This document shows positions 1,875 to 31,278 of a stretch of 32,000 nt of DNA, in pieces. Origin of the DNA: Candidatus Pacearchaeota archaeon (GTDB taxonomy: Archaea > Nanobdellota > Nanobdellia > Pacearchaeales > GW2011-AR1); contig JAGVXI010000004.1 of the NCBI GenBank assembly GCA_018303855.1, positions 1 through 32,000 on the forward strand. The letters are read 5' to 3'. The stretch's first letter is position 1. The number at the start of each line of letters is the position of its first letter. The position numbers and the translations under genes were made by a program. The notes under the pieces were generated by a model. That model saw nothing but the letters and a program-made list of their open reading frames with translations. It searched no databases and had not been told where the DNA came from.

Positions 1875-2009
1875 TGGCCCCGAAGGGATTTGAACCCTCG
1901 ACACCTGGATTTCTCTTTACATCTTTTTTTAAGGGAGATGTCATAAGAAGAACCATAGGTTCTTTTTATTTTAAGAGTCCAGTGCTCTACCAAGCTGAGC
2001 TACGGAGCC
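1875..2009 (-). tRNA. tRNA-Lys(CUU) with a 61-nt intron at the canonical 37/38 position; no encoded CCA
   Basis: Reverse complement folds as a cloverleaf. Acceptor GGCTCCG/CGGGGCC (one G-U), D arm GCTC-AGCTTGGTA-GAGC, anticodon stem CTGGA/TCCAG, loop CTCTTAA (anticodon CTT at 1973..1975). T arm GAGGG-TTCAAAT-CCCTT, discriminator A. Intron is 1911..1971, and its 3' AAGAG pairs with the exonic CTCTT as in a bulge-helix-bulge. TATA-like TATTTTTAAAC lies about 23-33 nt upstream (2032..2042). Confidence 0.85.
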
Positions 2010-3035: not shown

Positions 3036-3671
3036 CTAATTTTGATGGCAGAATCCCCTCTCACTTTTTGGTTTTCTCCAGTCATAGAACACAAGTTTGC
3101 CCCAGCCAGCATAAGGAGCCAGCCTAAGCACAGCTTTCCCGATAATCTGCTCTTCTTTTATGTCTTTTTCAACTTCTAACTGCCCATTATTATTATCCCC
3201 TAAGGTTGAATATACTGCTCCTTCTTTTGTCTCTTTTATTTTGATTACTCTGTGTATTAAAGGATTTTTCTGGCCACCATTGAATATTATAACATCTCCT
3301 ATTCTTACCTCGCCAGGCTTTGCGCCAATGACAAATAATATATCACCTTTTGTAAAGCCCCTTTTAAATGAAAATGTTTCAAACTGCTCTTTTTGTATAT
3401 TATAATAGTCATATTTGGAGGTTTCACTTTCCCACCAATTGTCAAAGTTTGAAAGTAAATTATCTTGGTGATGCATAGAGCATGATTCTACTATTGCTAA
3501 AGGTAGTGATGTTCCTGTAATCAGATTTAATGTCGGGAAGAATATAAATTTGATAAAAATGAAGATAAACAGCAGTGAGAAAATCCAGCCCTTTAAACTA
3601 TCGTCTTTCCAAAGCAAAAACCAAAACTTTTTTAAGATGATTTTTAATTTCTCATATGGTTTTTGTCTCAT
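3036..3671 (-). CDS. Signal peptidase I, archaeal/Sec11 (S26B) type
   Basis: N-terminal TM helix, Ser box VESCSMHH, His box PLIHRVI, and the conserved GDNN box (TLGDNNNG). The track start at 3686 is TTG; the likely ATG is 3671 (MRQKPYEKL). Confidence 0.8.
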   Translation of the reverse strand: MRQKPYEKLKIILKKFWFLLWKDDSLKGWIFSLLFIFIFIKFIFFPTLNLITGTSLPLAIVESCSMHHQDNLLSNFDNWWESETSKYDYYNIQKEQFETFSFKRGFTKGDILFVIGAKPGEVRIGDVIIFNGGQKNPLIHRVIKIKETKEGAVYSTLGDNNNGQLEVEKDIKEEQIIGKAVLRLAPYAGWGKLVFYDWRKPKSERGFCHQN

Positions 3672-3796
3672 TTCTACAAAAGGCAAAACAGGTTTTTAAA
3701 GTGTTTGAATTTTTTGTTTGTCAGATGAGAACATAAGAATATATATACTGGAACTTTGTTGAAATAACAAATATTTAGGTTTAACAAAAAGTTAAA

Positions 3797-4918
3797 ATGC
3801 AAGACAAGTTCTTAAAATATACCTTAATCTCTATGTTTTTATTTTTGTCAAGTTCATGTGCTGTTTTTAAAAAAAGTGAGCTTGAAAAAAAAGTAAGCGA
3901 TAGAATTGCCCAAATAAAAGACGTGAGTATAATCAAAGAAGAGAACTATACTCTTCCAATAAGGCAGGGGGCAGAAGAATTCCCTATTGATAAAAACAAA
4001 AAAGTGCTTGTTTATTATCCACTTAATGAAAATCCAAAGAGTATAGCATCTTCTTTGGAACTTATGTTAGCAGATGCTGCAAAAGTTTATGTTAATGACA
4101 ATACCGGGCAGGTATTTATTGTTGCAGATGAAGATTATGCAACTACAAAAGTTTTGCCTTTGCTTAGAAAAATTGACGTGGATTTGCCCCAAATTGAAAT
4201 TGAGGGGAAACTTGTTAAATTATTTGCAGATAAAACAATGGATTATGAAATGTCTCTTAAAGTCTCAGATATACTTGGGGTTGATTGGGATATGTTTATG
4301 CCAGGTGCATCTCTTAGGGAATTAACCAGGAAAACTTTTGGTTCTAAATTTAGCATCATAGAGGAAAATGACAGGCACAGAATTAATGCCTTGTTTAATT
4401 ATTTAGAAAGTGTAGGATATGCAGAAACAATTGTTTCTCCTGTTTTAGTTACTTATAATAATCAGAAAGCTTATATTGAGTCAACTGAAAAACAAGGCGT
4501 GCTTGTTGAAAGAGTAGTTGGCAATATTGTTACTAAATTGACTGAATATGAGCCAGTTATTACAAAAATGGAAATAACCCCAGTATTAACAGGGAATAAT
4601 GACATCCATTTAAACGTTGCTCTGCAGTTTGGAAGATTCCAGCCGAGTGGTTCTACTCAGGTTCCTAATATTAAAACAGAAAATGTTGGTTCAAGTGTTA
4701 GGCTTCGCCCAGGGCAAACTTTAACAATTGGAGGCATGATTTTAGAAGAAGAATTGGAAATTGAAAGAAGAGCAGTTCCTTTTGTCGGCGCGTATTTCCC
4801 ATTTAATTTTTTTAAATCTCTTGACAGAGAACACTCTACTAATGAGCTTGTTGTGATGATTACTCCGCATATTTTATACAATCCGCCAAAGCCAGATAAA
4901 ATCGCAACATTTAAATAG
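3797..4918 (+). CDS. Secretin-family protein (secretin N-domain plus C-terminal secretin domain) with a Cys-containing N-terminal signal
   Basis: N-terminus MQDKFLKYTLISMFLFLSSSC (Cys21). KVYVNDNTGQVFIVADEDYATTKVLPLLRKIDVDLPQIEIEGKLVKL resembles the secretin_N short domain. LESVGYAETIVSPVLVTYNNQKAYI...MEITPVLTGNNDIHLNV...VRLRPGQTLTIGGMILEEE...AVPFVGAYFPFNFFKSL...NELVVMITPHIL follows the secretin C-domain pattern. Confidence 0.75.
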   Translation: MQDKFLKYTLISMFLFLSSSCAVFKKSELEKKVSDRIAQIKDVSIIKEENYTLPIRQGAEEFPIDKNKKVLVYYPLNENPKSIASSLELMLADAAKVYVNDNTGQVFIVADEDYATTKVLPLLRKIDVDLPQIEIEGKLVKLFADKTMDYEMSLKVSDILGVDWDMFMPGASLRELTRKTFGSKFSIIEENDRHRINALFNYLESVGYAETIVSPVLVTYNNQKAYIESTEKQGVLVERVVGNIVTKLTEYEPVITKMEITPVLTGNNDIHLNVALQFGRFQPSGSTQVPNIKTENVGSSVRLRPGQTLTIGGMILEEELEIERRAVPFVGAYFPFNFFKSLDREHSTNELVVMITPHILYNPPKPDKIATFK

Positions 4919-8114: not shown

Positions 8115-8507
8115 ATGGAGAAAAAAACAATTTTACTTGCAGATGATAACAATTCTGCTATAGAATATTTTCAATCAAGAATTCAGCCTGAGTTTGTTGG
8201 ATATGCTTTTGAATTTTGCGAAGATGGTTTAGCTCTTCAAAGTAGATTGAAAGAAAATGTTGATGGAATTGCTTTAGTTGTTACAGACAATAAAATGCCT
8301 GGAATAAACGGAATAGAGATAATATCAAAATATTCAAGACAAAAGAAATTTAAAAATACTCCCTTTATTCTTTATACTATAGATGATGACGATTTTTTGC
8401 CTGATACTGCTAAGAAGTACGGGGCATATGCGTGCGTTTTCAAAGCAGATTCTGAAAAATTAATATTAACAATGAGAGAGGCATTGAACGGAAAAGAAAA
8501 CATTTGA
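8115..8507 (+). CDS. Single-domain response regulator (CheY-like receiver)
   Basis: ILLADDNNS acidic pocket, VVTDNKMPGINGIEI phospho-acceptor region, 130 aa, no output domain. Confidence 0.8.
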   Translation: MEKKTILLADDNNSAIEYFQSRIQPEFVGYAFEFCEDGLALQSRLKENVDGIALVVTDNKMPGINGIEIISKYSRQKKFKNTPFILYTIDDDDFLPDTAKKYGAYACVFKADSEKLILTMREALNGKENI

Positions 8508-12891: not shown

Positions 12892-13758
12892 CTACTCTTT
12901 TGTTGGTTGTTCGCTCGGTTCACTTAATTCCGACATCGGGATTGCCACCCTCACGCCAAATACATCTGACTCTTGTTTTGGGTTTTTCCCATCCCTGTAA
13001 CCGAAATTTTCAACAACATCATAGTCTTTTGGAATTTGTGCTGACTCATATGTTTCAAGTTTTCCGCCAAGAGTTGTCAATATTTTTTTAACAAACCTAA
13101 ATCCCCTTCCTCTTCCCATGCCATGTGCTTCTCTCATTTTTACACCTTCTGTTTCATTTTCAAGTATTAATTCTAATGAACTCCTAAGACTTTCATCTTG
13201 TGTTATTCTTATTCCCTGGTTTATATTAGAGCCTTCTGGGGCATAGGTCATACAATTTCCTAAAAGAGTTCCCATCATTGCGCACATTACTCCTCTGTTA
13301 GCATAAACTTGTATAGGATTATGGTATTCTAATTTGTCATATTTAAAGATTAATCCTATTTTGTGCTCTTTTATATAATCATCATAAAGTAATGCATGTT
13401 CCCTTATCATCTGCTCTAGATTTATTTGTTCTGCGTTTTTTTGAAGCGCTTCTTTGGAACTGCCTTCCAAAGATAACAGGTCTGATAAGTCCATTAATTG
13501 TGTAGCACCTCGTTGGATTTTTCCTATTACCATTGTTTTTGTATGTTCATCAATATTCTTTTTACTTAGAAGGTTAGCAAATCCAATTACTATCTGTACA
13601 GGTGCTCTGAATTCATGCACAACCATGTCCAATATTTCTTCCCTTTCTTCAACTTTTCTGTCTCTTTCCTCTATTACTCTGTCTATATCTGCTTTTAATT
13701 CAGGGTAAAAAGCAAGGACAGCTGCGTATTTATCTGTTAATTTTTCATATGATTCCAT
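12892..13758 (-). CDS. Cytoplasmic histidine kinase (HisKA plus HATPase_c, no obvious sensor domain)
   Basis: H box HEFRAPVQIVIGFANLL, N-box-like LLGNCMTYAPEG, and a G-rich lid GMGRGRGFRFVKKILTTLGGKL. The track start at 13803 is TTG; the first ATG is 13758 (MESYEKL). Confidence 0.75.
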   Translation of the reverse strand: MESYEKLTDKYAAVLAFYPELKADIDRVIEERDRKVEEREEILDMVVHEFRAPVQIVIGFANLLSKKNIDEHTKTMVIGKIQRGATQLMDLSDLLSLEGSSKEALQKNAEQINLEQMIREHALLYDDYIKEHKIGLIFKYDKLEYHNPIQVYANRGVMCAMMGTLLGNCMTYAPEGSNINQGIRITQDESLRSSLELILENETEGVKMREAHGMGRGRGFRFVKKILTTLGGKLETYESAQIPKDYDVVENFGYRDGKNPKQESDVFGVRVAIPMSELSEPSEQPTKE

Positions 13759-13930
13759 CTTAATTATCTGAACAGGATTAGTTTTATTGTGAATTTTGAA
13801 CAACTTTTAAACCTTTCGGTTGAGAATTTTACATATGAATATATTTTTATGTGTCTAATGGAAATTATTGTGGTTTGGATGATTTATTGGTGTGGTTTTG
13901 ATTATTTATTGGGAGAGTGGCGATATTTAT

Positions 13931-18300: not shown

Positions 18301-19482
18301 TTAAACAATTTGTTTCCCACGTTCTTTATCACGCAAATGAACATTATTTTTTCTTGCTAATTTTACTATTGATTTCATAGCTTGAATGTATTTATTGTAT
18401 TTATGTTCTGCGTATTTTCCTATTGCTCCATCTTTTTTTGCATGTATTAGTGTATTTAATTTTCTTGCATAATCATCATATTTATCTTGTAGTTCTTCTT
18501 GTGTTCTTTGTCTTTCTCTCGCTTTTTTCTGCTCTTGAACTCGTTGTTCTACCTGTTGTTTTTGTTCTTCTTTAACTTGCTTAGCTGCTTTTTCCTTCAT
18601 GCTCTCTAAAAGCGCTTTTTCTAATTTTTCCTTTTCTTCCTTCATTTCCTGCTCTTCATGGACTTTTCTTTCTCTTTTTTCCCTTTGTTGCCTTTCCTCT
18701 CTCTGCTGTCTTTGTTCTCGTTCTATTCTCTCTCTTTCCTCTTTTTTTCTTTGTTCTTCTTCCTGTTTTTCCTGCACCTCTTTTTGAATTTGTCTTTGTT
18801 CCCGCTCTTGCTTTGAGCGTTGTATCCTTCTGTATCTTTCCATAACTTCTTGTCTTGAAAAACTTCTTGGTTGTATTATTGTTCTTGTTACTGGGCTTGG
18901 TTTATTATACCTAATTCCTAAATCATGATATGGCATTTCTTTTATTTTCTTTTTTCTTCTGAGCAATAAACCCCAGAAAATAAAGATTACTCCAAGTGTA
19001 AAAGCTAATCCCTTGTTATAAGCAAAAAAACCAAGTAAAAATAATATACCTCCTATTAAAAATAAAATGTTTGCAAATCCTATAAAAAACCCAAGCATTA
19101 TTAACAACACAACCCATAAAAAAGGAGAATAAAGGAAGTCATAATCTAATCCAATGTTATAAAATAAATCTGTGAAGTCAAATCCAATATAGTTTGCATA
19201 ATACATTAAACCAAAAGAAAATGCAAATGCCATGACTCCTGCAAGTGCATTGTGGTGTCCAAAAACTTTTCTTAAAAGAAAATAAATAATTGCAAACGAA
19301 ATAATAAATATAGATCCAAGAATTATTGTGTCTGGTCCAATAGTGTACCATAAATCAGTTAGTGAAAAGCTGTTATAATAGCCAGTGTTAAAATTGGTAA
19401 AATCCGACAAGCTGAATTGTGCATTAACCAAATTAGATAAAATTACCATTAAGAACAATGTTGCCAAAATCCTCTTTTTCAT
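18301..19482 (-). CDS. Multi-pass membrane protein with a long C-terminal E/R/K/Q-rich helical region
   Basis: Signal-like N-terminus, several hydrophobic helices, then about 120 residues of E/R/K/Q repeats (EREQRQIQKEVQEKQEEEQRKKEERERIEREQRQQREERQQREKRERK...). Confidence 0.7.
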   Translation of the reverse strand: MKKRILATLFLMVILSNLVNAQFSLSDFTNFNTGYYNSFSLTDLWYTIGPDTIILGSIFIISFAIIYFLLRKVFGHHNALAGVMAFAFSFGLMYYANYIGFDFTDLFYNIGLDYDFLYSPFLWVVLLIMLGFFIGFANILFLIGGILFLLGFFAYNKGLAFTLGVIFIFWGLLLRRKKKIKEMPYHDLGIRYNKPSPVTRTIIQPRSFSRQEVMERYRRIQRSKQEREQRQIQKEVQEKQEEEQRKKEERERIEREQRQQREERQQREKRERKVHEEQEMKEEKEKLEKALLESMKEKAAKQVKEEQKQQVEQRVQEQKKARERQRTQEELQDKYDDYARKLNTLIHAKKDGAIGKYAEHKYNKYIQAMKSIVKLARKNNVHLRDKERGKQIV

Positions 19483-19646: not shown

Positions 19647-20213
19647 TTACCTTTCCCATGGGTATCTTGGCTTTGCTTTGTTTTTTACCCCAAAAATAAT
19701 TCCTGAAATAATCACCATAATTGTTCCAATTACTGCTAATAGTCCGGTTTCATATACCCAGCCAAAAACCGAGATGAGTATGAAAAACACGCCAATTGAA
19801 AACAATGTTTTTTCTGCCCCCCATTTAAATGATGCAAATGCAGCAAATCCAATAAATGCAAGGAGTATTAACGGGGCAAATTCGTCTACGGCAAATTCAA
19901 TGTCATAAAAAAATACTCCAACATCAAATCCTCTTAAATGTAAGCCGTAGGTGATTAATAATGAAACCGAAAATGCAACAATTCCTGCAATTACCGCATT
20001 TCCTTTAAAAAACTTAATTAGCGAGAAATAAATAAACCCAAATGAAATAAAGAATATGCAAGTTAAAAATACTGTTGAAGGCTCTAATGCATCTAAAAGA
20101 GTTCCCAATGAAAAACCCCCATACCCATAACTATAATAGCGAGGATAAGCACTGACAAAGTTAATTGCAAACAATGCAGTGATAAAACTCAGCAGCCAAT
20201 TCCTCTTTTGCAT
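19647..20213 (-). CDS. Multi-pass membrane protein, paralog of the N-terminal part of 18301..19482
   Basis: FSLGTLLDALEPSTVFLTCIFFISFGFIYFSLIKFFKGNAVIAGIVAFSVSLLITYGLHLRGFD aligns by eye with FSLTDLWYTIGPDTIILGSIFIISFAIIYFLLRKVFGHHNALAGVMAFAFSFGLMYYANYIGFD. Confidence 0.7.
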   Translation of the reverse strand: MQKRNWLLSFITALFAINFVSAYPRYYSYGYGGFSLGTLLDALEPSTVFLTCIFFISFGFIYFSLIKFFKGNAVIAGIVAFSVSLLITYGLHLRGFDVGVFFYDIEFAVDEFAPLILLAFIGFAAFASFKWGAEKTLFSIGVFFILISVFGWVYETGLLAVIGTIMVIISGIIFGVKNKAKPRYPWER

Positions 20214-21688: not shown

Positions 21689-22996
21689 TCAAATTTTCTT
21701 CCTAATCTTTACCGCAGTTGGAGCCTCGCCGCCATGCCATGTAAAGCGAGGGCGGACTCGCATTGGATAAATTCTCTCAGAATTATCATCAAGAAGAATT
21801 GCGCTTCCTTTTAAATCCGGCAGTTCGTCTATATACTTCTTTATGCTTGCTAAAAGATATGACTGCATTATATAATTCAACGACTCAACATCTGGCTGGC
21901 TTGTAACTCTGTGGGCAATAACAATGTCTGATTGAGTCATCACATCCCTGTTAATCATACCTGGTTGCTGTGTTGCTAATACAAGAGAAATTCCTGGCTG
22001 TCTCCCCTCTCTTAAAAGCTGAACCAAAGCATCTGTTGCAATTGTTTTGTTATTTAAGGGAAGAAATTCATGAGCTTCATCAATAAATATCCATACAAGG
22101 GGATCTTCTTTTCTTTTTGTTATCTCCGAGAATTCAAGCCCCTTTGCTACAGCCTCAACCTCTTCCTTTTTTCTTGCAGTCATTCTTTGATTAAAAATTT
22201 TTCTTGAAATTAAGCTGATTACTAATGCCCTCACATTAAACGCTCCAACTGCATTGTAAATACTTAGGTCAAGAACTGTTGTTGAACCTGCAGTTACTAA
22301 ATCTTTTGTTTGTGTCGGGTTGTCATATTTTCCTGCAAAAACACCCCAGGTTTGTGCTGCTTCAAACAAACCTGCTGCTGCATTTCTTATCTCTTGGGTG
22401 GTTTCTTTGTCTTGATTTATGCTGGATATGATATCATTAATGTCATATTTTTTTCCTTTTAATTTACTGAGTGTTCTTTCTATAATTACTGCAACAGGTT
22501 CAATAATATTTAGCCCAAAAGTTAAAATCCAGTCTTCTGCCTGCATTTCTGTGGTATCTAAAGCAAATTTTTCATCTGCTGGAATTCCTTTTTCAACATA
22601 CTCATCATAATAGCCAAAAGGAACAAAAATTTTTACTGGAAGATTTTTTGGCTCAAGTTGCCATTCACTTAGCAGGGTTTTGTCTTTTTGGTTCTGATAT
22701 TTCATTGTCCAGTAAATTCCCATTGTATCAAAGATTAGAGAAGCAATATTCTGGCTGAGCTCTTTTGGTAAATTTGATAGTTCTTCTGCAATTACTCCAA
22801 GCGTGTAAGATTTTCCAGAACCCCTCTTTCCAGCTACCAGGACAACATGGCTTCTGGCTATGTCCATGAATATCTTATTGCTTAATGAAGTATACTGCCC
22901 CATTTTTACATAGCCTTTGCCAAGAAAAATTAATCCTTTATCTTCCAGAGATTTTTTGTCATGCTCATCCCTTCCTGTTATTATGTCATACGGCAT
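21689..22996 (-). CDS. HerA/FtsK-superfamily ATPase (DUF87-like)
   Basis: Walker A VLVAGKRGSGKSYTLG, Walker B VWIFIDEAHEFLP, and REGRQPGISLVLATQQPGMINRDVMTQSDIVIAHRV, typical of HerA-like ATPases. Confidence 0.8.
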   Translation of the reverse strand: MPYDIITGRDEHDKKSLEDKGLIFLGKGYVKMGQYTSLSNKIFMDIARSHVVLVAGKRGSGKSYTLGVIAEELSNLPKELSQNIASLIFDTMGIYWTMKYQNQKDKTLLSEWQLEPKNLPVKIFVPFGYYDEYVEKGIPADEKFALDTTEMQAEDWILTFGLNIIEPVAVIIERTLSKLKGKKYDINDIISSINQDKETTQEIRNAAAGLFEAAQTWGVFAGKYDNPTQTKDLVTAGSTTVLDLSIYNAVGAFNVRALVISLISRKIFNQRMTARKKEEVEAVAKGLEFSEITKRKEDPLVWIFIDEAHEFLPLNNKTIATDALVQLLREGRQPGISLVLATQQPGMINRDVMTQSDIVIAHRVTSQPDVESLNYIMQSYLLASIKKYIDELPDLKGSAILLDDNSERIYPMRVRPRFTWHGGEAPTAVKIRKKI

Positions 22997-23146: not shown

Positions 23147-24160
23147 ATGGAGCCTGTAGAAGTGAAGAAAATTGAACAAAAAGTTGAAGAAAAAATAGAA
23201 GAGGGATTTATAAGCAAGTCAAAAAAAAATCCCTGGATTCTCTCTACATTAATCTTTGCTATTTTAGCATTGGGATTGGTTTTGATGAACCCTAATATCT
23301 CTGGGCGAATTACCGGAAATGTTATTTCTGCAAATAATGCTGCACAAAATTTACTGGGTTTTTATTTAAACAATGGTGCAGAAGGGTTGTCAGTTGATAG
23401 TGTTGAGACAGAATCTGGTTTATACAAAATTAACTTTCTTTTTCAGGGGCAGGTTGTTCCAATTTATATGACTAGAGATGGTAAGCTTGCAGGCAGTTTA
23501 AGCCCGCTTATGTTAAGTACCCAAACAAATACTCAAACAAATACTAATGATAATACAAATGTACAGCAAACTTCACAGGCTATGCCAAAATCTGATAAAC
23601 CAAAAGTTGAACTTTTTGTGATGAGTTATTGCCCTTATGGCACTCAAGCTGAAAAAGGACTACTTCCAGCTGTGGCATTGTTAGGGGATAAAATAGATTT
23701 CAAGTTAAGATTTGTTCACTACACTTTGCACGGTGAAAAAGAAGATATAGAGAATAATAGGCAGTTATGCATTAGAGAAGAACAAGGGCAAGACAAGTTA
23801 AATAAATATCTTGTTTGCATACTTGATTCAGATAACCCTAATGCTCCAAAAGATGTTAGTGTTTGCGAAAAAGAAGCAGGAATTGACAGTGCTAAATTGC
23901 AGACATGCTTAAAGAATAAAGCAGATAGTTATTTTGCTTCTGATTCTGCTTTAAGTCAGGGTTATGGAGTTCAAGGTAGCCCAACATTGGTTATTAATGG
24001 TGTTCAATCTTCTGCAGGAAGAAATCCTGCAAGTTATTTAAATGGCATTTGCGGTGCATTTAATAATGCTCCAAGTGAATGCAGTGAGCAATTATCAATA
24101 ACAAGCCCTTCAACAGGATTTGGTTACAAGACAGGAACAGATACAGTAGCCCAGTGTTGA
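23147..24160 (+). CDS. Membrane-anchored, Cys-rich thioredoxin-fold protein (DsbA/GILT-like) with a CPYG site
   Basis: One N-terminal TM helix (WILSTLIFAILALGLVLM) and a T/N/Q low-complexity linker (TQTNTQTNTNDNTN). Then VELFVMSYCPYGTQAEKGLLP at the position where the CxxC motif of the thioredoxin fold would sit. Several further Cys residues follow. Confidence 0.5.
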   Translation: MEPVEVKKIEQKVEEKIEEGFISKSKKNPWILSTLIFAILALGLVLMNPNISGRITGNVISANNAAQNLLGFYLNNGAEGLSVDSVETESGLYKINFLFQGQVVPIYMTRDGKLAGSLSPLMLSTQTNTQTNTNDNTNVQQTSQAMPKSDKPKVELFVMSYCPYGTQAEKGLLPAVALLGDKIDFKLRFVHYTLHGEKEDIENNRQLCIREEQGQDKLNKYLVCILDSDNPNAPKDVSVCEKEAGIDSAKLQTCLKNKADSYFASDSALSQGYGVQGSPTLVINGVQSSAGRNPASYLNGICGAFNNAPSECSEQLSITSPSTGFGYKTGTDTVAQC

Positions 24161-30693: not shown

Positions 30694-31278
30694 ATGGAGC
30701 AGGAAAAATTAAAAAAATTGGAAGAGGCACTAATCCAAGTAGGATTAAGAATAGCAAAGAGAGGAGAAGGAGCTTTGTTTGTTATAGGAGAAGTTGATTT
30801 TAAACCTTTAGTTAATCAATCTGTGCCTAGGTTCAAAGTGATAAGCAATCCAAAATTGCTAGAGTCTTTGGCATTGATGGATGGAGCAGTTATAATTGAT
30901 AGGCAAGGTTTTATGAGAGCTTATGGAGTTATGATTAAATCCAAAAAAACCCTTAAGAATTTTGGAACAAGGCATAGTGCCGCATTAAGTGCTGCAAAAG
31001 GAGAAAACGTTGTTTTTATTGTTTCTGAAGAAGATAGGAAGATAAGAATTTTAAAGCAAGGCAAGGTGGTTATGCAGATAGATGCCCTGCAAAAGAACAT
31101 TGAGAAAAATGTTTCAGGGGCTGTTAGAGTATTAGAATCAATTGGTGCAGGAACTATCGGAAGCATTGGCACAAGCGTGCTTGTTCCTACTTTAGGGATT
31201 GCTTTTTTTCCAGGAGTAGTTCTTTTTGGTTCTGCTTATTATTTGGCAAAGTTCCTCTCTAAAAAATTTAATCAATAG
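30694..31278 (+). CDS. Diadenylate cyclase (DisA_N/DAC) domain protein with a C-terminal membrane anchor
   Basis: GEGALFVIGE, the DGA motif (MDGAVIIDRQG), GTRHSAALSAA (RHR motif with R->S), and VVFIVSEEDRKIRILKQGKVV. The C-terminal hydrophobic stretch is GAGTIGSIGTSVLVPTLGIAFFPGVVLFGSAYYLAKFL. Confidence 0.7.
   Translation: MEQEKLKKLEEALIQVGLRIAKRGEGALFVIGEVDFKPLVNQSVPRFKVISNPKLLESLALMDGAVIIDRQGFMRAYGVMIKSKKTLKNFGTRHSAALSAAKGENVVFIVSEEDRKIRILKQGKVVMQIDALQKNIEKNVSGAVRVLESIGAGTIGSIGTSVLVPTLGIAFFPGVVLFGSAYYLAKFLSKKFNQ

What the first reader, a model, noticed from the sequence alone, without database searches (positions are those of the whole stretch)
3797..4918. Bacterial-type secretin encoded within a core archaeal gene neighbourhood
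The 373-aa product has both halves of a secretin. The short N-domain is KVYVNDNTGQVFIVADEDYATTKVLPLLRKIDVDLPQIEIEGKLVKL, compared with the recalled consensus 'v..d.rtN.l.v.g......v..li..lD.p..qV.Ie..ive'. The C-terminal secretin domain runs LESVGYAETIVSPVLVTYNNQKAYI / MEITPVLTGNNDIHLNV / VRLRPGQTLTIGGMILEEE / AVPFVGAYFPFNFFKSL..NELVVMITPHIL, compared with '..GqtvviGGL....VP.Lg.iP.lG.LF....ELlifitP.i'. The N-terminus is a signal sequence with Cys21 (a non-canonical lipobox, LSSSC). Secretins are the outer-membrane channels of diderm bacteria (T2SS, T3SS, type IV pili, filamentous phage). I know of no characterised archaeal secretin. Every neighbour is archaeal (TFS, Sec11-type signal peptidase, Cdc48, PolB, FEN1, RFC), and the gene shares the local AT-rich composition, so it does not look like a fresh insertion. 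No GspE/PilB-type ATPase, pilin, pilotin or phage genes are adjacent. It could be an envelope or cell-cell-contact pore used in a new context, for example by an episymbiotic archaeon.
Basis: partly seen in the sequence, partly recalled or inferred. Interest (0 to 1): 0.85.

Follow-up and report, generated by a model that had tools for sequence, protein, structure and literature searches.

The report
Secretin channel gene native to archaea
A small groundwater archaeon carries, as a stable and conserved part of its own chromosome, a complete copy of the secretin protein that two-membraned bacteria use to build large gated outer-membrane pores, which reviews say archaea do not have.

Summary
ORF 3797-4918(+) encodes a 373-aa protein with a strong Pfam Secretin hit (87.6 bits; cut-off 27.5). 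A confident AlphaFold2 model (pLDDT 84.7) has 40 secretins as its top 40 PDB matches (E down to 2.5e-20); the next hit is at E about 0.02. The window is archaeal throughout (TFS, Sec11-type peptidase, Cdc48, PolB, FEN1, RFC, intron-bearing tRNA).

It is not a chimera or a fresh insertion. The locus was assembled independently in several samples. GC and codon usage match the neighbours. A 46%-identical orthologue sits in the same syntenic slot in a second archaeal genome, with dN/dS about 0.23, like the housekeeping neighbours.

It belongs to a distinct lipobox-bearing 'orphan' secretin subfamily. Short forms occur on at least four clearly archaeal and three probably archaeal contig types. Long forms with a coiled-coil tail occur in Planctomycetota-type bacteria. 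No T2SS, T4P, pilotin or phage partner is adjacent in any context.

Architecture: signal peptide with Cys21, a tether, one N3-type domain and a full secretin domain; no N0 or S domain.

Most likely it is a self-piloted, multimeric gated envelope channel. That is inferred; its substrate and target membrane are unknown. I found no prior report of an archaeal secretin.

The parts
3797..4918 (+). Secretin-family gene, 373 aa (identical to NCBI 'hypothetical protein J4225_00575', Candidatus Pacearchaeota archaeon)
   Evidence: ORF; PF00263 at 87.6 bits; AF2 model pLDDT 84.7; Foldseek top 40 hits are all secretins; identity to the NCBI record
3797..3859 (+). Signal peptide with lipobox-type Cys21 (MQDKFLKYTLISMFLFLSSSC)
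   Evidence: Hydropathy and lipobox rule; the protein's only Cys. This Cys is nearly invariant in the subfamily and is present in all archaeal-context members once the P0009 start is corrected
3860..3973 (+). Tether of about 38 residues: a short helix (28-39), then a low-confidence linker ending in the subfamily-conserved L53-P motif (LPIY in most members)
   Evidence: pLDDT 40-60 across residues 40-57; L53 is nearly invariant
3974..4174 (+). Single N3-type (ring-building, Secretin_N-like) domain, residues 60-126
   Evidence: beta-beta-alpha-beta-beta-alpha unit at pLDDT above 90; Secretin_N is sub-threshold here but hit by 7 of 14 relatives; the profile aligns to the last N-domain of PilQ
4190..4879 (+). 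Secretin beta-barrel domain, residues 132-361, made of long beta-hairpins
4772..4813 (+). AVPFVGAYFPFNFF loop, the counterpart of the conserved secretin VPxLGDIPxLGxLF motif. Assigning that motif to the membrane-associating amphipathic loop is from my own knowledge
   Evidence: Residue-level alignment to PilQ; no regular secondary structure at 326-339 in the model
3687..3796 (.). Divergent intergenic region with A/T-rich TATA-like boxes; ATATTTA at 3771-3777 lies 26 nt upstream of the ATG
   Evidence: Read directly from the sequence; a consensus match only, not evidence of function
3036..3686 (-). Archaeal Sec11-type signal peptidase I, transcribed divergently. The adjacency is conserved in the syntenic second genome but not in other archaeal contexts, so a functional link is unproven
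   Evidence: TIGR02228 at 68.1 bits vs 51.85; synteny; 59% identity between the two genomes

Best explanation
**Shown**
- The gene encodes an intact secretin-family protein that is a native, vertically inherited gene of a DPANN (Pacearchaeota-type) archaeon.
- Its anatomy is a Sec-type signal peptide with lipobox Cys21, a tether of about 38 residues, one N3-type ring-building domain and a complete secretin barrel domain that includes the conserved VP..G...F loop. It has no N0, N1, N2, AMIN or S domains.
- It belongs to a distinct subfamily of lipobox-bearing secretins that are 'orphans', meaning they are not linked to T2SS, T4P, Tad, T3SS or phage genes. The subfamily occurs in several low-GC archaeal lineages (short forms of 360-450 aa) and in Planctomycetota-type bacteria (long forms with a coiled-coil tail).

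**Inferred**
- An ancient interdomain transfer introduced it. The direction is most likely bacteria to archaea, because the wider superfamily is overwhelmingly bacterial.
- The protein is exported by Sec and lipid-anchored by the archaeal AliA-type pathway, or alternatively cleaved by the neighbouring signal peptidase.
- It self-assembles without BAM or a pilotin into a 12-15-mer gated channel in the outermost envelope layer.
- It lets a large substrate pass. Candidates are a type IV-like filament, DNA for nucleotide scavenging, exopolymer or folded protein.
For: **Identity and fold:** PF00263 at 87.6 bits. PDB sequence hits are to PilQ, RcpA, GspD and pIV. The subfamily profile matches PilQ at E=1e-34 across the last N-domain plus the secretin domain. 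The AF2 model has pLDDT 84.7 and pTM 0.71. Foldseek returns 40 of 40 top hits as secretins, then a gap to E=0.02.

**Native to archaea:** archaeal genes run the length of the window. Independent assemblies agree. A syntenic orthologue at 46% identity has neighbours at 52-92% identity. dN/dS is about 0.23 against 0.03-0.25 for neighbours. Composition matches the flanks here and on the other archaeal contigs.

**Other archaeal contexts:**
- P0010 lies beside L21e, RpoF, S13, S4, S11 and RpoD.
- P0009 lies with RpoN, 5S rRNA, SecDF and an intron-bearing tRNA.
- P0013 lies with a tRNA carrying a 73-nt anticodon-loop intron.
- P0064 lies with an ArgRS whose best PDB match is from Pyrococcus.

**Subfamily traits:** the lipobox Cys is nearly invariant. 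All 14 aligned members hit PF00263.

**Plausibility of export and assembly:**
- Lipoproteins and AliA are prevalent in DPANN (PMC12462473).
- The secretin PulD multimerises and inserts into plain liposomes without any assembly machinery (PMC4604470).
- The lipoprotein secretin HxcQ needs no pilotin (cited in PMC12475490).

**Hint at a substrate:** on L018 the secretin is followed after 6 bp by a signal-peptide-bearing SNase nuclease.
Against: - No oligomer was modelled and no expression or protein data exist.
- The envelope of these archaea is unknown, and cultivated DPANN are described with a single membrane plus S-layer, which gives a secretin no obvious membrane to sit in.
- No partner machinery is adjacent in any of about 10 contexts, so the substrate is a guess.
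- The nuclease linkage is a single instance.
- The gene is rare. Two pattern scans of 185,579 species-representative genomes found nothing, so it cannot be a core DPANN function.
- The AHL-like loop is unusually aromatic in the window protein and its orthologue (VPFVGAYFPFNFF).
- The deep tree topology is unresolved, so the number and direction of transfers are not established.
- The organisms behind the other archaeal contigs are unnamed.
Confidence: 0.72

Rival explanations
1. Host-directed pore. The archaeon is an episymbiont of a diderm host. It exports the secretin so that it inserts into the host's outer membrane, as a filamentous phage's pIV does in its host, and so builds a conduit at the contact site.
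For: Secretins can insert into lipid bilayers unaided (PMC4604470). The model resembles the minimal phage secretin pIV (TMt 0.74 to 7ofh; phrog_1012 E=1.8e-22). The closest bacterial relatives come from Planctomycetota-type MAGs in similar anoxic habitats. A 'secretin-like' barrel has been seen by cryo-ET in the envelope of the DPANN cell ARM-1, docking a nanotube that extends from its host; its protein is unknown (PMC11329633).
Against: There is no host information for this lineage. An N-terminal lipid anchor would keep the protein on the producer cell. The cryo-ET barrel is 21 nm wide, larger than known secretins, and comes from a different DPANN phylum. Nothing tested here distinguishes this reading from a self-envelope channel.
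Confidence: 0.15
2. Repurposed scaffold. The protein still forms a ring but no longer acts as a membrane channel. For example, it could be a collar in the pseudo-periplasm or S-layer around a filament, tethered to the cytoplasmic membrane through its lipid anchor.
For: The tether of about 38 residues plus the N3 domain would place the barrel several nanometres above the membrane. The membrane-associating loop has diverged in the window protein. Archaeal type IV pilus loci are reported to be often linked to S-layer genes (PMC7613921).
Against: All canonical barrel motifs and near-invariant Gly and Pro residues are retained. No pilus genes lie nearby.
Confidence: 0.08
3. Passenger gene. A horizontally acquired bacterial gene with no function in the archaeon, drifting towards loss.
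For: The gene is rare and patchily distributed, and absent from the species-representative genomes at pattern level.
Against: The ORF is intact in two genomes that have diverged to 46% identity, at the same locus, with dN/dS of about 0.23. Family-invariant residues are kept. Composition is fully ameliorated.
Confidence: 0.03
4. Artefact. Either a bacterial-archaeal chimeric contig or binning contamination, or a pIV-type gene belonging to an integrated filamentous virus.
For: Secretins are otherwise bacterial or phage proteins. The protein hits the pIV PHROG.
Against: Identical junctions appear in independent assemblies from JGI and ENA samples. The orthologue is syntenic. There are several further archaeal contexts. 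There is no compositional step. No neighbour has a PHROG hit. No relative was found in IMG/VR with the patterns used. The only viral structural matches are pIV homologues.
Confidence: 0.02

Closest known systems
Type IVa pilus secretin PilQ and the DNA-uptake secretin HofQ/ComE
   Same: These give the best sequence matches: NCBIfam PilQ subfamily at 91.7 bits and HofQ aligned over residues 64-360; Neisseria PilQ at E=1e-34 with the subfamily profile. The last N-domain plus secretin domain, the GxTLxxGG motif and the VPxLG..P..G.LF motif are shared. HofQ is of similar size (profile of about 419 positions).
   Different: The scores are far below the family cut-offs (284 and 554 bits). There are no AMIN or N0 domains and no pilMNOP or pilus genes nearby. 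The host is an archaeon. This protein has a lipobox.
Self-piloting lipoprotein secretins (HxcQ of P. aeruginosa; BfpB of the EPEC type IVb pilus)
   Same: An N-terminal lipobox Cys precedes the N-domains and there is no S-domain or pilotin gene. HxcQ is cited as the known pilotin-independent secretin (PMC12475490). BfpB, described as an 'outer membrane lipoprotein', is a structural and sequence hit (9u5s).
   Different: Those proteins sit in T2SS or T4bP operons of diderm Proteobacteria and are targeted by Lol. Here there is no operon, no Lol and an archaeal host. Sequence similarity is no closer than to PilQ or GspD.
Type II secretion secretin GspD/PulD
   Same: These are the top structural matches (5zdh, 5w68, 5wq8; E about 1e-20). 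PulD assembles independently of BAM in liposomes, which gives a precedent for assembly in a foreign cell.
   Different: TIGR02517 scores 59.5 bits against a cut-off of 351. N0, N1, N2 and the S domain are absent, and there are no gsp genes.
Filamentous-phage secretin pIV
   Same: It has a minimal architecture of similar length. The phrog_1012 hit (E=1.8e-22) covers residues 52-360. TMt is 0.74 to 7ofh. pIV is a secretin that works in a membrane it was not 'born' in.
   Different: There are no phage genes in the window, no IMG/VR relatives, and the gene is chromosomal, syntenic and conserved.
Uncharacterised Planctomycetota 'GspD' long forms (for example a Sedimentisphaerales MAG protein of 636 aa)
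   Same: They belong to the same subfamily: 26-32% identity over nearly the full length, including the lipobox, the LP.Y motif, FADxTxD and LPGAxLR. They are also orphan genes, lying among housekeeping genes.
   Different: They carry an extra coiled-coil tail of about 250 aa rich in Ala, Glu, Gln and Lys, and they are in a diderm bacterial host (SecA, EF-P, L19 and S20 as neighbours).

Membership tests
Secretin superfamily (Pfam PF00263; GspD/PilQ/InvG/pIV) | C-terminal secretin domain scoring above the curated HMM threshold | tested here: met
   87.6 bits vs 27.5, E=9.4e-25, covering model positions 2-168 of 169; 14 of 14 subfamily members hit
Secretin superfamily (Pfam PF00263; GspD/PilQ/InvG/pIV) | Protomer fold of long beta-hairpins that build the double-walled barrel | tested here: met
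   AF2 monomer with pLDDT 84.7; Foldseek top 40 PDB hits are all secretins, E from 2.5e-20 to 1e-13, with the next hit at E=0.02
Secretin superfamily (Pfam PF00263; GspD/PilQ/InvG/pIV) | At least one N-terminal ring-building (N3 / Secretin_N) domain | tested here: inconclusive
   Pfam PF03958 scores 12.4 bits against a cut-off of 28.2 for this protein. In its favour, the model has a confident beta-beta-alpha-beta-beta-alpha unit at residues 60-126, 7 of 14 relatives hit PF03958, and the profile aligns to the last N-domain of PilQ
Secretin superfamily (Pfam PF00263; GspD/PilQ/InvG/pIV) | Export signal | tested here: met
   N-terminal hydrophobic stretch plus a match to a PROSITE-style lipobox rule (written from memory), with Cys21 the only Cys. 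No dedicated signal-peptide predictor was available
Secretin superfamily (Pfam PF00263; GspD/PilQ/InvG/pIV) | Homo-oligomer of 12-15 or more subunits forming a gated channel | not testable with these tools
   Only monomer prediction was available
Secretin superfamily (Pfam PF00263; GspD/PilQ/InvG/pIV) | Residence in the outer membrane of a diderm cell | not testable with these tools
   The host is an uncultivated archaeon whose envelope is unknown. Reviews describe archaea as lacking such components (PMC7613921; PMC6668835)
Secretin superfamily (Pfam PF00263; GspD/PilQ/InvG/pIV) | Genetic linkage to a T2SS, T4P, Tad, T3SS or filamentous-phage module | tested here: not met
   None in the 32 kb window, the 10 kb upstream of it (L001), or about 10 other contexts
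PilQ (NCBIfam TIGR02515) | Score above the curated cut-off; AMIN and N0 domains present | tested here: not met
   91.7 bits vs 284.35. Only one N-domain is present and there is no room for AMIN or N0 domains within 373 aa
GspD (NCBIfam TIGR02517) | Score above the curated cut-off; N0-N3 domains and an S domain present | tested here: not met
   59.5 bits vs 351.35. The protein ends about 12 residues after the barrel
HofQ DNA-uptake porin (NCBIfam NF010083) | Score above the curated cut-off | tested here: not met
   53.8 bits vs 554, although the alignment spans residues 64-360
Filamentous-phage pIV (PHROG 1012) | Encoded within an inovirus-type gene set | tested here: not met
   The profile hit has E=1.8e-22, but no neighbour has a PHROG hit and there is no IMG/VR relative
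Lipoprotein ('lipo-') secretins | Lipobox Cys directly after the signal peptide, and no S-domain or pilotin | tested here: met
   Cys21, conserved across the subfamily. Actual lipidation is not testable here; AliA-type lipidation is reported in DPANN (PMC12462473)

The most novel reading that the evidence does not exclude
Some DPANN archaea have kept a bacterial-type secretin for a long evolutionary time. They use it to build a large gated pore either in a so-far unseen second envelope layer of their own or in the outer membrane of a diderm host. This would give the first molecular candidate for the 'secretin-like' barrels and intercellular conduits seen at DPANN-host contacts. It would also show that secretins can work outside the bacterial diderm envelope, without BAM, Lol or a pilotin.
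Probability: 0.25. Interest if true: 0.9.

Novelty: new variant of a known kind. Interest (0 to 1): 0.75.

Why it matters
Secretins are treated as a hallmark of the diderm bacterial envelope. Comparative work on type IV filament machines states that they are absent from monoderms and lists none in archaeal systems (PMC6668835). A recent review says archaea lack homologues of the bacterial outer-membrane translocation subunits (PMC7613921).

A conserved, selected, lipobox-bearing secretin in several DPANN lineages raises concrete and testable questions:
- What envelope do these uncultivated archaea have?
- How does a secretin assemble with archaeal ether lipids?
- What passes through it? DNA or nucleotide scavenging, filaments and host contact are the obvious candidates for organisms that depend on other cells.

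It also defines an uncharacterised orphan lipo-secretin subfamily shared between Planctomycetota-type bacteria and archaea. That is a clean case of interdomain transfer of an envelope machine part.

Tried and rejected
- **Word-indexed homologue search.** Generic bacterial secretins saturated the candidate list and most of the subfamily was missed. The exhaustive phmmer search was needed.
- **Pattern scans of the GTDB species-representative genomes with A3 and A6.** Both found no relative, so no organism names could be obtained that way.
- **Metagenome scan with A6.** It gave one 1.3 kb fragment.
- **Viral scan.** It gave nothing.
- **Exact look-ups of neighbouring proteins to get organism names.** Almost no names came back. 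The archaeal assignment of the other contigs therefore rests on gene content, intron-bearing tRNAs and GC.
- **ARAGORN.** It missed all intron-bearing tRNAs; Rfam found them.
- **PDB search with the GDH of L021.** It did not discriminate between domains, so L021 stays 'probably archaeal'.
- **P0012/P0170 and P0019 contexts.** These are high-GC (0.57-0.68) and look bacterial, but this was not proven.
- **NJ tree.** It supports only the window + P0007 pair (99%). Archaeal monophyly, and the number and direction of transfers, are unresolved, so I make no claim on them.
- **Signal peptidase as a functional partner.** Its adjacency is conserved only inside one syntenic block, so I do not count it as evidence.
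- **HerA/FtsK-like ATPase at 21689-22996 as a partner.** It is 17 kb away and from an unrelated family, so I rejected it.
- **dN/dS.** It rests on a near-saturated dS and should be read only as 'well below 1 and similar to the neighbours'.
Full report
**1. The observation**

The ORF at 3797..4918 (+) exists as described and encodes 373 aa. Against Pfam the protein hits PF00263 (Secretin) with E=9.4e-25 and 87.6 bits, against a gathering cut-off of 27.5. Residues 203-360 cover nearly the whole model.

The Secretin_N model (PF03958) gives only 12.4 bits against a cut-off of 28.2.

NCBIfam places it nearest the PilQ subfamily (91.7 bits), then SctC, GspD, HofQ and MshL. All are far below the equivalog cut-offs. 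phmmer against PDB sequences finds PilQ (E=2e-9), RcpA, GspD and phage pIV.

**2. The fold**

I predicted the structure with AlphaFold2 from a 149-sequence alignment of exhaustive-search hits. The model has mean pLDDT 84.7 and pTM 0.71. Its layout is:
- an N-terminal helix, the signal peptide (residues 2-18);
- a short helix (28-39);
- a disordered linker (40-57);
- a beta-beta-alpha-beta-beta-alpha unit (60-126) at pLDDT above 90;
- long beta-hairpins from 132 to 361.

Foldseek against the PDB returns 40 hits at E=2.5e-20 to 1.3e-13. Every one is a secretin: GspD, ExeD/EpsD, PilQ, InvG, MxiD, BfpB, RcpA or pIV. After them the E-value jumps to 0.02 (FadL). Against predicted viral structures only two pIV-type proteins match.

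The N-domain is also supported in other ways:
- Full-length profile alignments cover it: HofQ 64-360, SctC 99-360 and pIV PHROG 52-360.
- Seven of 14 relatives hit PF03958.
- The subfamily profile aligns to Neisseria PilQ from its last N-domain to the end, at E=1e-34.

The protein ends about 12 residues after the barrel. It therefore has no S-domain, and 373 residues leave no room for N0, N1, N2 or AMIN domains.

**3. The N-terminus**

There is one hydrophobic stretch, at residues 5-24. Cys21 is the only cysteine. ISMFLFLSSSC satisfies a PROSITE-type lipoprotein rule that I wrote from memory.

In the subfamily alignment this Cys is nearly invariant. By the strict rule, 26 of the 40 best hits have a lipobox, against 26 of the next 109. 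The one archaeal member that seemed to lack a signal peptide (P0009) has a miscalled start: the in-frame upstream sequence MIRQRKNSHRASLCSLIFLSSLLSGC restores it.

Lipobox proteins and the AliA lipidation enzyme are reported to be prevalent in DPANN archaea (PMC12462473). Lipid anchoring in an archaeal cell is therefore plausible, though untested here.

**4. The host is an archaeon and the gene belongs to it**

The window encodes:
- TFS, Cdc48, a response regulator and a metallophosphatase;
- an archaeal-type signal peptidase I, TIGR02228 at 68.1 bits against 51.85;
- PolB, FEN1, Trm5 and a HerA-like ATPase;
- RFC large and small subunits, type-2 MetAP, RsmB, AGOG and a DAC domain;
- a 135-nt intron-containing tRNA.

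The exact protein is deposited as a hypothetical protein of a Candidatus Pacearchaeota archaeon and occurs on 23 or more contigs.

*Independent assemblies.* The same gene order around the secretin appears in assemblies from several JGI and ENA samples. The secretin DNA is identical in all five loci returned, so these represent one population.

*Composition.* The gene's GC (0.339), GC3 (0.254) and codon usage fall inside the spread of 29 neighbouring genes.

*Synteny.* A 409-aa relative, 46-47% identical, occupies the same position (TFS, signal peptidase, secretin, then Cdc48, MetAP, RsmB and PolB) in a second, clearly diverged archaeal genome that was itself assembled four times. Neighbour identities between the two genomes range from 52% to 92%.

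*Selection.* Nei-Gojobori dN/dS for the secretin is about 0.23, against 0.03-0.25 for the neighbours. dS is near saturation, so the value means only 'well below 1 and like the neighbours'.

Together these results exclude a chimera, contamination and a recent passenger insertion for practical purposes.

**5. It is one member of a wider subfamily**

Exhaustive phmmer against 1.84 billion cluster representatives gives 7,765 hits. The best roughly 55 align over nearly the full length, including the N-terminal region.

The subfamily shares these features:
- the lipobox;
- an LP.Y motif before the N-domain;
- FADxTxD after the N-domain;
- LPGAxLR..R;
- P.G..Q.P;
- G.TL..GG;
- the VP.L..IP.LG.LF loop.

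Genomic contexts of the members:

| Member | Context | Assignment |
|---|---|---|
| P0010 (30% identity) | abuts L21e, RpoF, S13, S4, S11, RpoD, L18e, L13 | archaeal |
| P0009 (32%) | with RpoN and 5S rRNA; on a second contig with SecDF and a 100-nt tRNA | archaeal |
| P0013 | with ArgRS and a tRNA carrying a 73-nt anticodon-loop intron | archaeal (probable) |
| P0064 | with TrmB, a SET-domain protein, and an ArgRS whose best PDB match is the Pyrococcus enzyme | probably archaeal |
| P0023 | on a 27.6% GC contig with a related ArgRS | probably archaeal |
| P0015 (long form, ~250-aa coiled-coil tail) | among SecA, EF-P, L19 and S20 | bacterial |
| P0016 cluster (long form) | one member named as from a Sedimentisphaerales MAG | bacterial |
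| P0012/P0170, P0019 | high-GC contigs | look bacterial |

The ArgRS proteins of L018 and L022 are 58% identical, and each is about 49% identical to that of L021. All archaeal-context contigs have GC of 0.28-0.39. Each secretin gene matches its own flanks in GC, and its trinucleotide profile is closest or nearly closest to its own flanks.

A neighbour-joining tree supports only the window + P0007 pair (99% bootstrap). Deeper nodes are unresolved, so I do not claim a number or direction of transfers.

The gene is rare. Two pattern scans of 185,579 species-representative genomes found no relative.

**6. What is not there**

No context, archaeal or bacterial, contains T2SS, T4P, Tad or T3SS genes, a pilotin or phage genes next to the secretin. 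The window has no pilin-like class III signal peptide and no PHROG hit other than the secretin itself. IMG/VR holds no relative for the patterns used.

The signal peptidase adjacency is conserved only within the one syntenic block.

One possible functional clue comes from L018. There the secretin is followed after 6 bp by a signal-peptide-bearing SNase/LTD nuclease, and then by a glycine-zipper OMP-like lipobox protein. This is a single instance.

**7. Mechanism**

*Shown:* the protein is an exported, probably lipid-anchored, minimal secretin (one N3 domain plus the barrel) under purifying selection in archaea.

*Inferred from established knowledge of the family:* it oligomerises into a 12-15-mer gated barrel.
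- Secretins such as PulD multimerise and insert into protein-free liposomes independently of BAM (PMC4604470).
- The lipoprotein secretin HxcQ needs no pilotin (Viarre 2009, as cited in PMC12475490).

An archaeon lacking BAM, Lol and pilotins could therefore in principle assemble it.

*Unknown:* where it sits and what passes through it.
- Possible locations are an unseen outer layer of the archaeon, the pseudo-periplasm or S-layer, or a host outer membrane.
- Possible substrates are DNA for salvage (the HofQ-like alignment and the L018 nuclease), a type IV-like filament, exopolymer (secretins serve as slime nozzles in PMC12475490), or protein.

I put about 0.7 on 'functional multimeric envelope channel'. 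Within that, no more than 0.15-0.25 goes to the host-directed or second-membrane readings.

**8. Comparison with what is known**

By homology the protein is a member of the secretin superfamily. It meets the domain, fold and export criteria. It is not a member of the PilQ, GspD, HofQ, SctC or pIV equivalog families, because it fails their score cut-offs and lacks their extra domains and gene contexts.

Functionally, the nearest analogues are the self-piloting lipo-secretins (HxcQ, BfpB) and the minimal phage secretin pIV.

I found no report of an archaeal secretin homologue in the searchable literature. Denise et al. 2019 treat secretins as a diderm-bacterial accretion that is absent from monoderms. 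van Wolferen et al. 2022 state that archaea lack homologues of the bacterial outer-membrane translocation subunits. Johnson et al. 2024 describe a 'secretin-like' 21-nm barrel in a DPANN envelope whose protein is unknown; this is a lead, not a link.

**9. Verdict**

The finding is real, robust and unexpected. It is a new variant of a known kind: a secretin subfamily living in archaeal genomes without its usual machinery. The function remains to be shown.

Noticed in passing
window 1875-2009 (-): A 135-nt tRNA gene with an intron (Rfam 54.7 bits) that ARAGORN missed. The ORFs at 1723-1956 and 1874-2062 that overlap it are spurious.
   Followed up: partly
window 18301-19482 (-) and 19647-20213 (-): Tandem paralogous multi-pass membrane proteins with signal-like N-termini (34% identity, E=5e-13). 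The longer one carries a highly charged Glu/Lys/Arg/Gln-rich tail of about 200 aa. No family hit beyond weak TolA/AuxB-like low-complexity matches.
   Followed up: partly
window 12892-13803 (-) and 8115-8507 (+): A histidine-kinase-like protein (weak PhoR/PnpS-type hits) and a stand-alone receiver domain. These are bacterial-type two-component parts in a reduced archaeal genome.
   Followed up: no
window 21689-22996 (-): A HerA/FtsK-type DUF87 ATPase with weak CedD- and VirB4-like matches, flanked by a 130-aa unknown protein and an exported DsbA-like thioredoxin-fold protein (23147-24160). It lies 17 kb from the secretin and no link is shown.
   Followed up: partly
window 30694-31278 (+): A DAC (di-adenylate cyclase) domain protein with a C-terminal hydrophobic segment, suggesting c-di-AMP signalling in this archaeon.
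   Followed up: no
L018 3379-5739: On another archaeal-type contig the secretin is followed after 6 bp by a signal-peptide-bearing SNase+LTD nuclease, and then by a glycine-zipper OMP-like protein with its own lipobox (SSISC). The arrangement looks like an operon and hints at extracellular DNA processing or uptake.
   Followed up: partly
L015 2038-2148 and L014 81-191: The start of P0009 is miscalled in the public gene calls. The in-frame upstream sequence MIRQRKNSHRASLCSLIFLSSLLSGC restores the signal peptide and lipobox.
   Followed up: yes
P0015, P0016, P0017, P0020, P0024, P0028 (bacterial long forms; L016 10001-11881): The bacterial members of the subfamily carry a C-terminal coiled-coil tail of about 250 aa, rich in Ala, Glu, Gln and Lys. 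No archaeal-context member has it, and its function is unknown.
   Followed up: no
L010 9201-10442 and L020 5270-6499: On the high-GC, presumably bacterial contigs the secretin gene is 5-7 GC points below its flanks, whereas the archaeal copies match theirs. This may hint at the direction of transfer; it was not analysed further.
   Followed up: no
L006 vs L007 and L008: In one assembly of the syntenic sister genome, Cdc48 is called as three fragments and topoisomerase I as two. Both are intact in other assemblies, so this reflects assembly or frameshift variation and not gene decay.
   Followed up: no
L018, L021, L022: Three low-GC contigs carry ArgRS near the secretin. Their ArgRS proteins are 49-58% identical. 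This suggests a second, loosely syntenic archaeal lineage group that carries the gene.
   Followed up: partly
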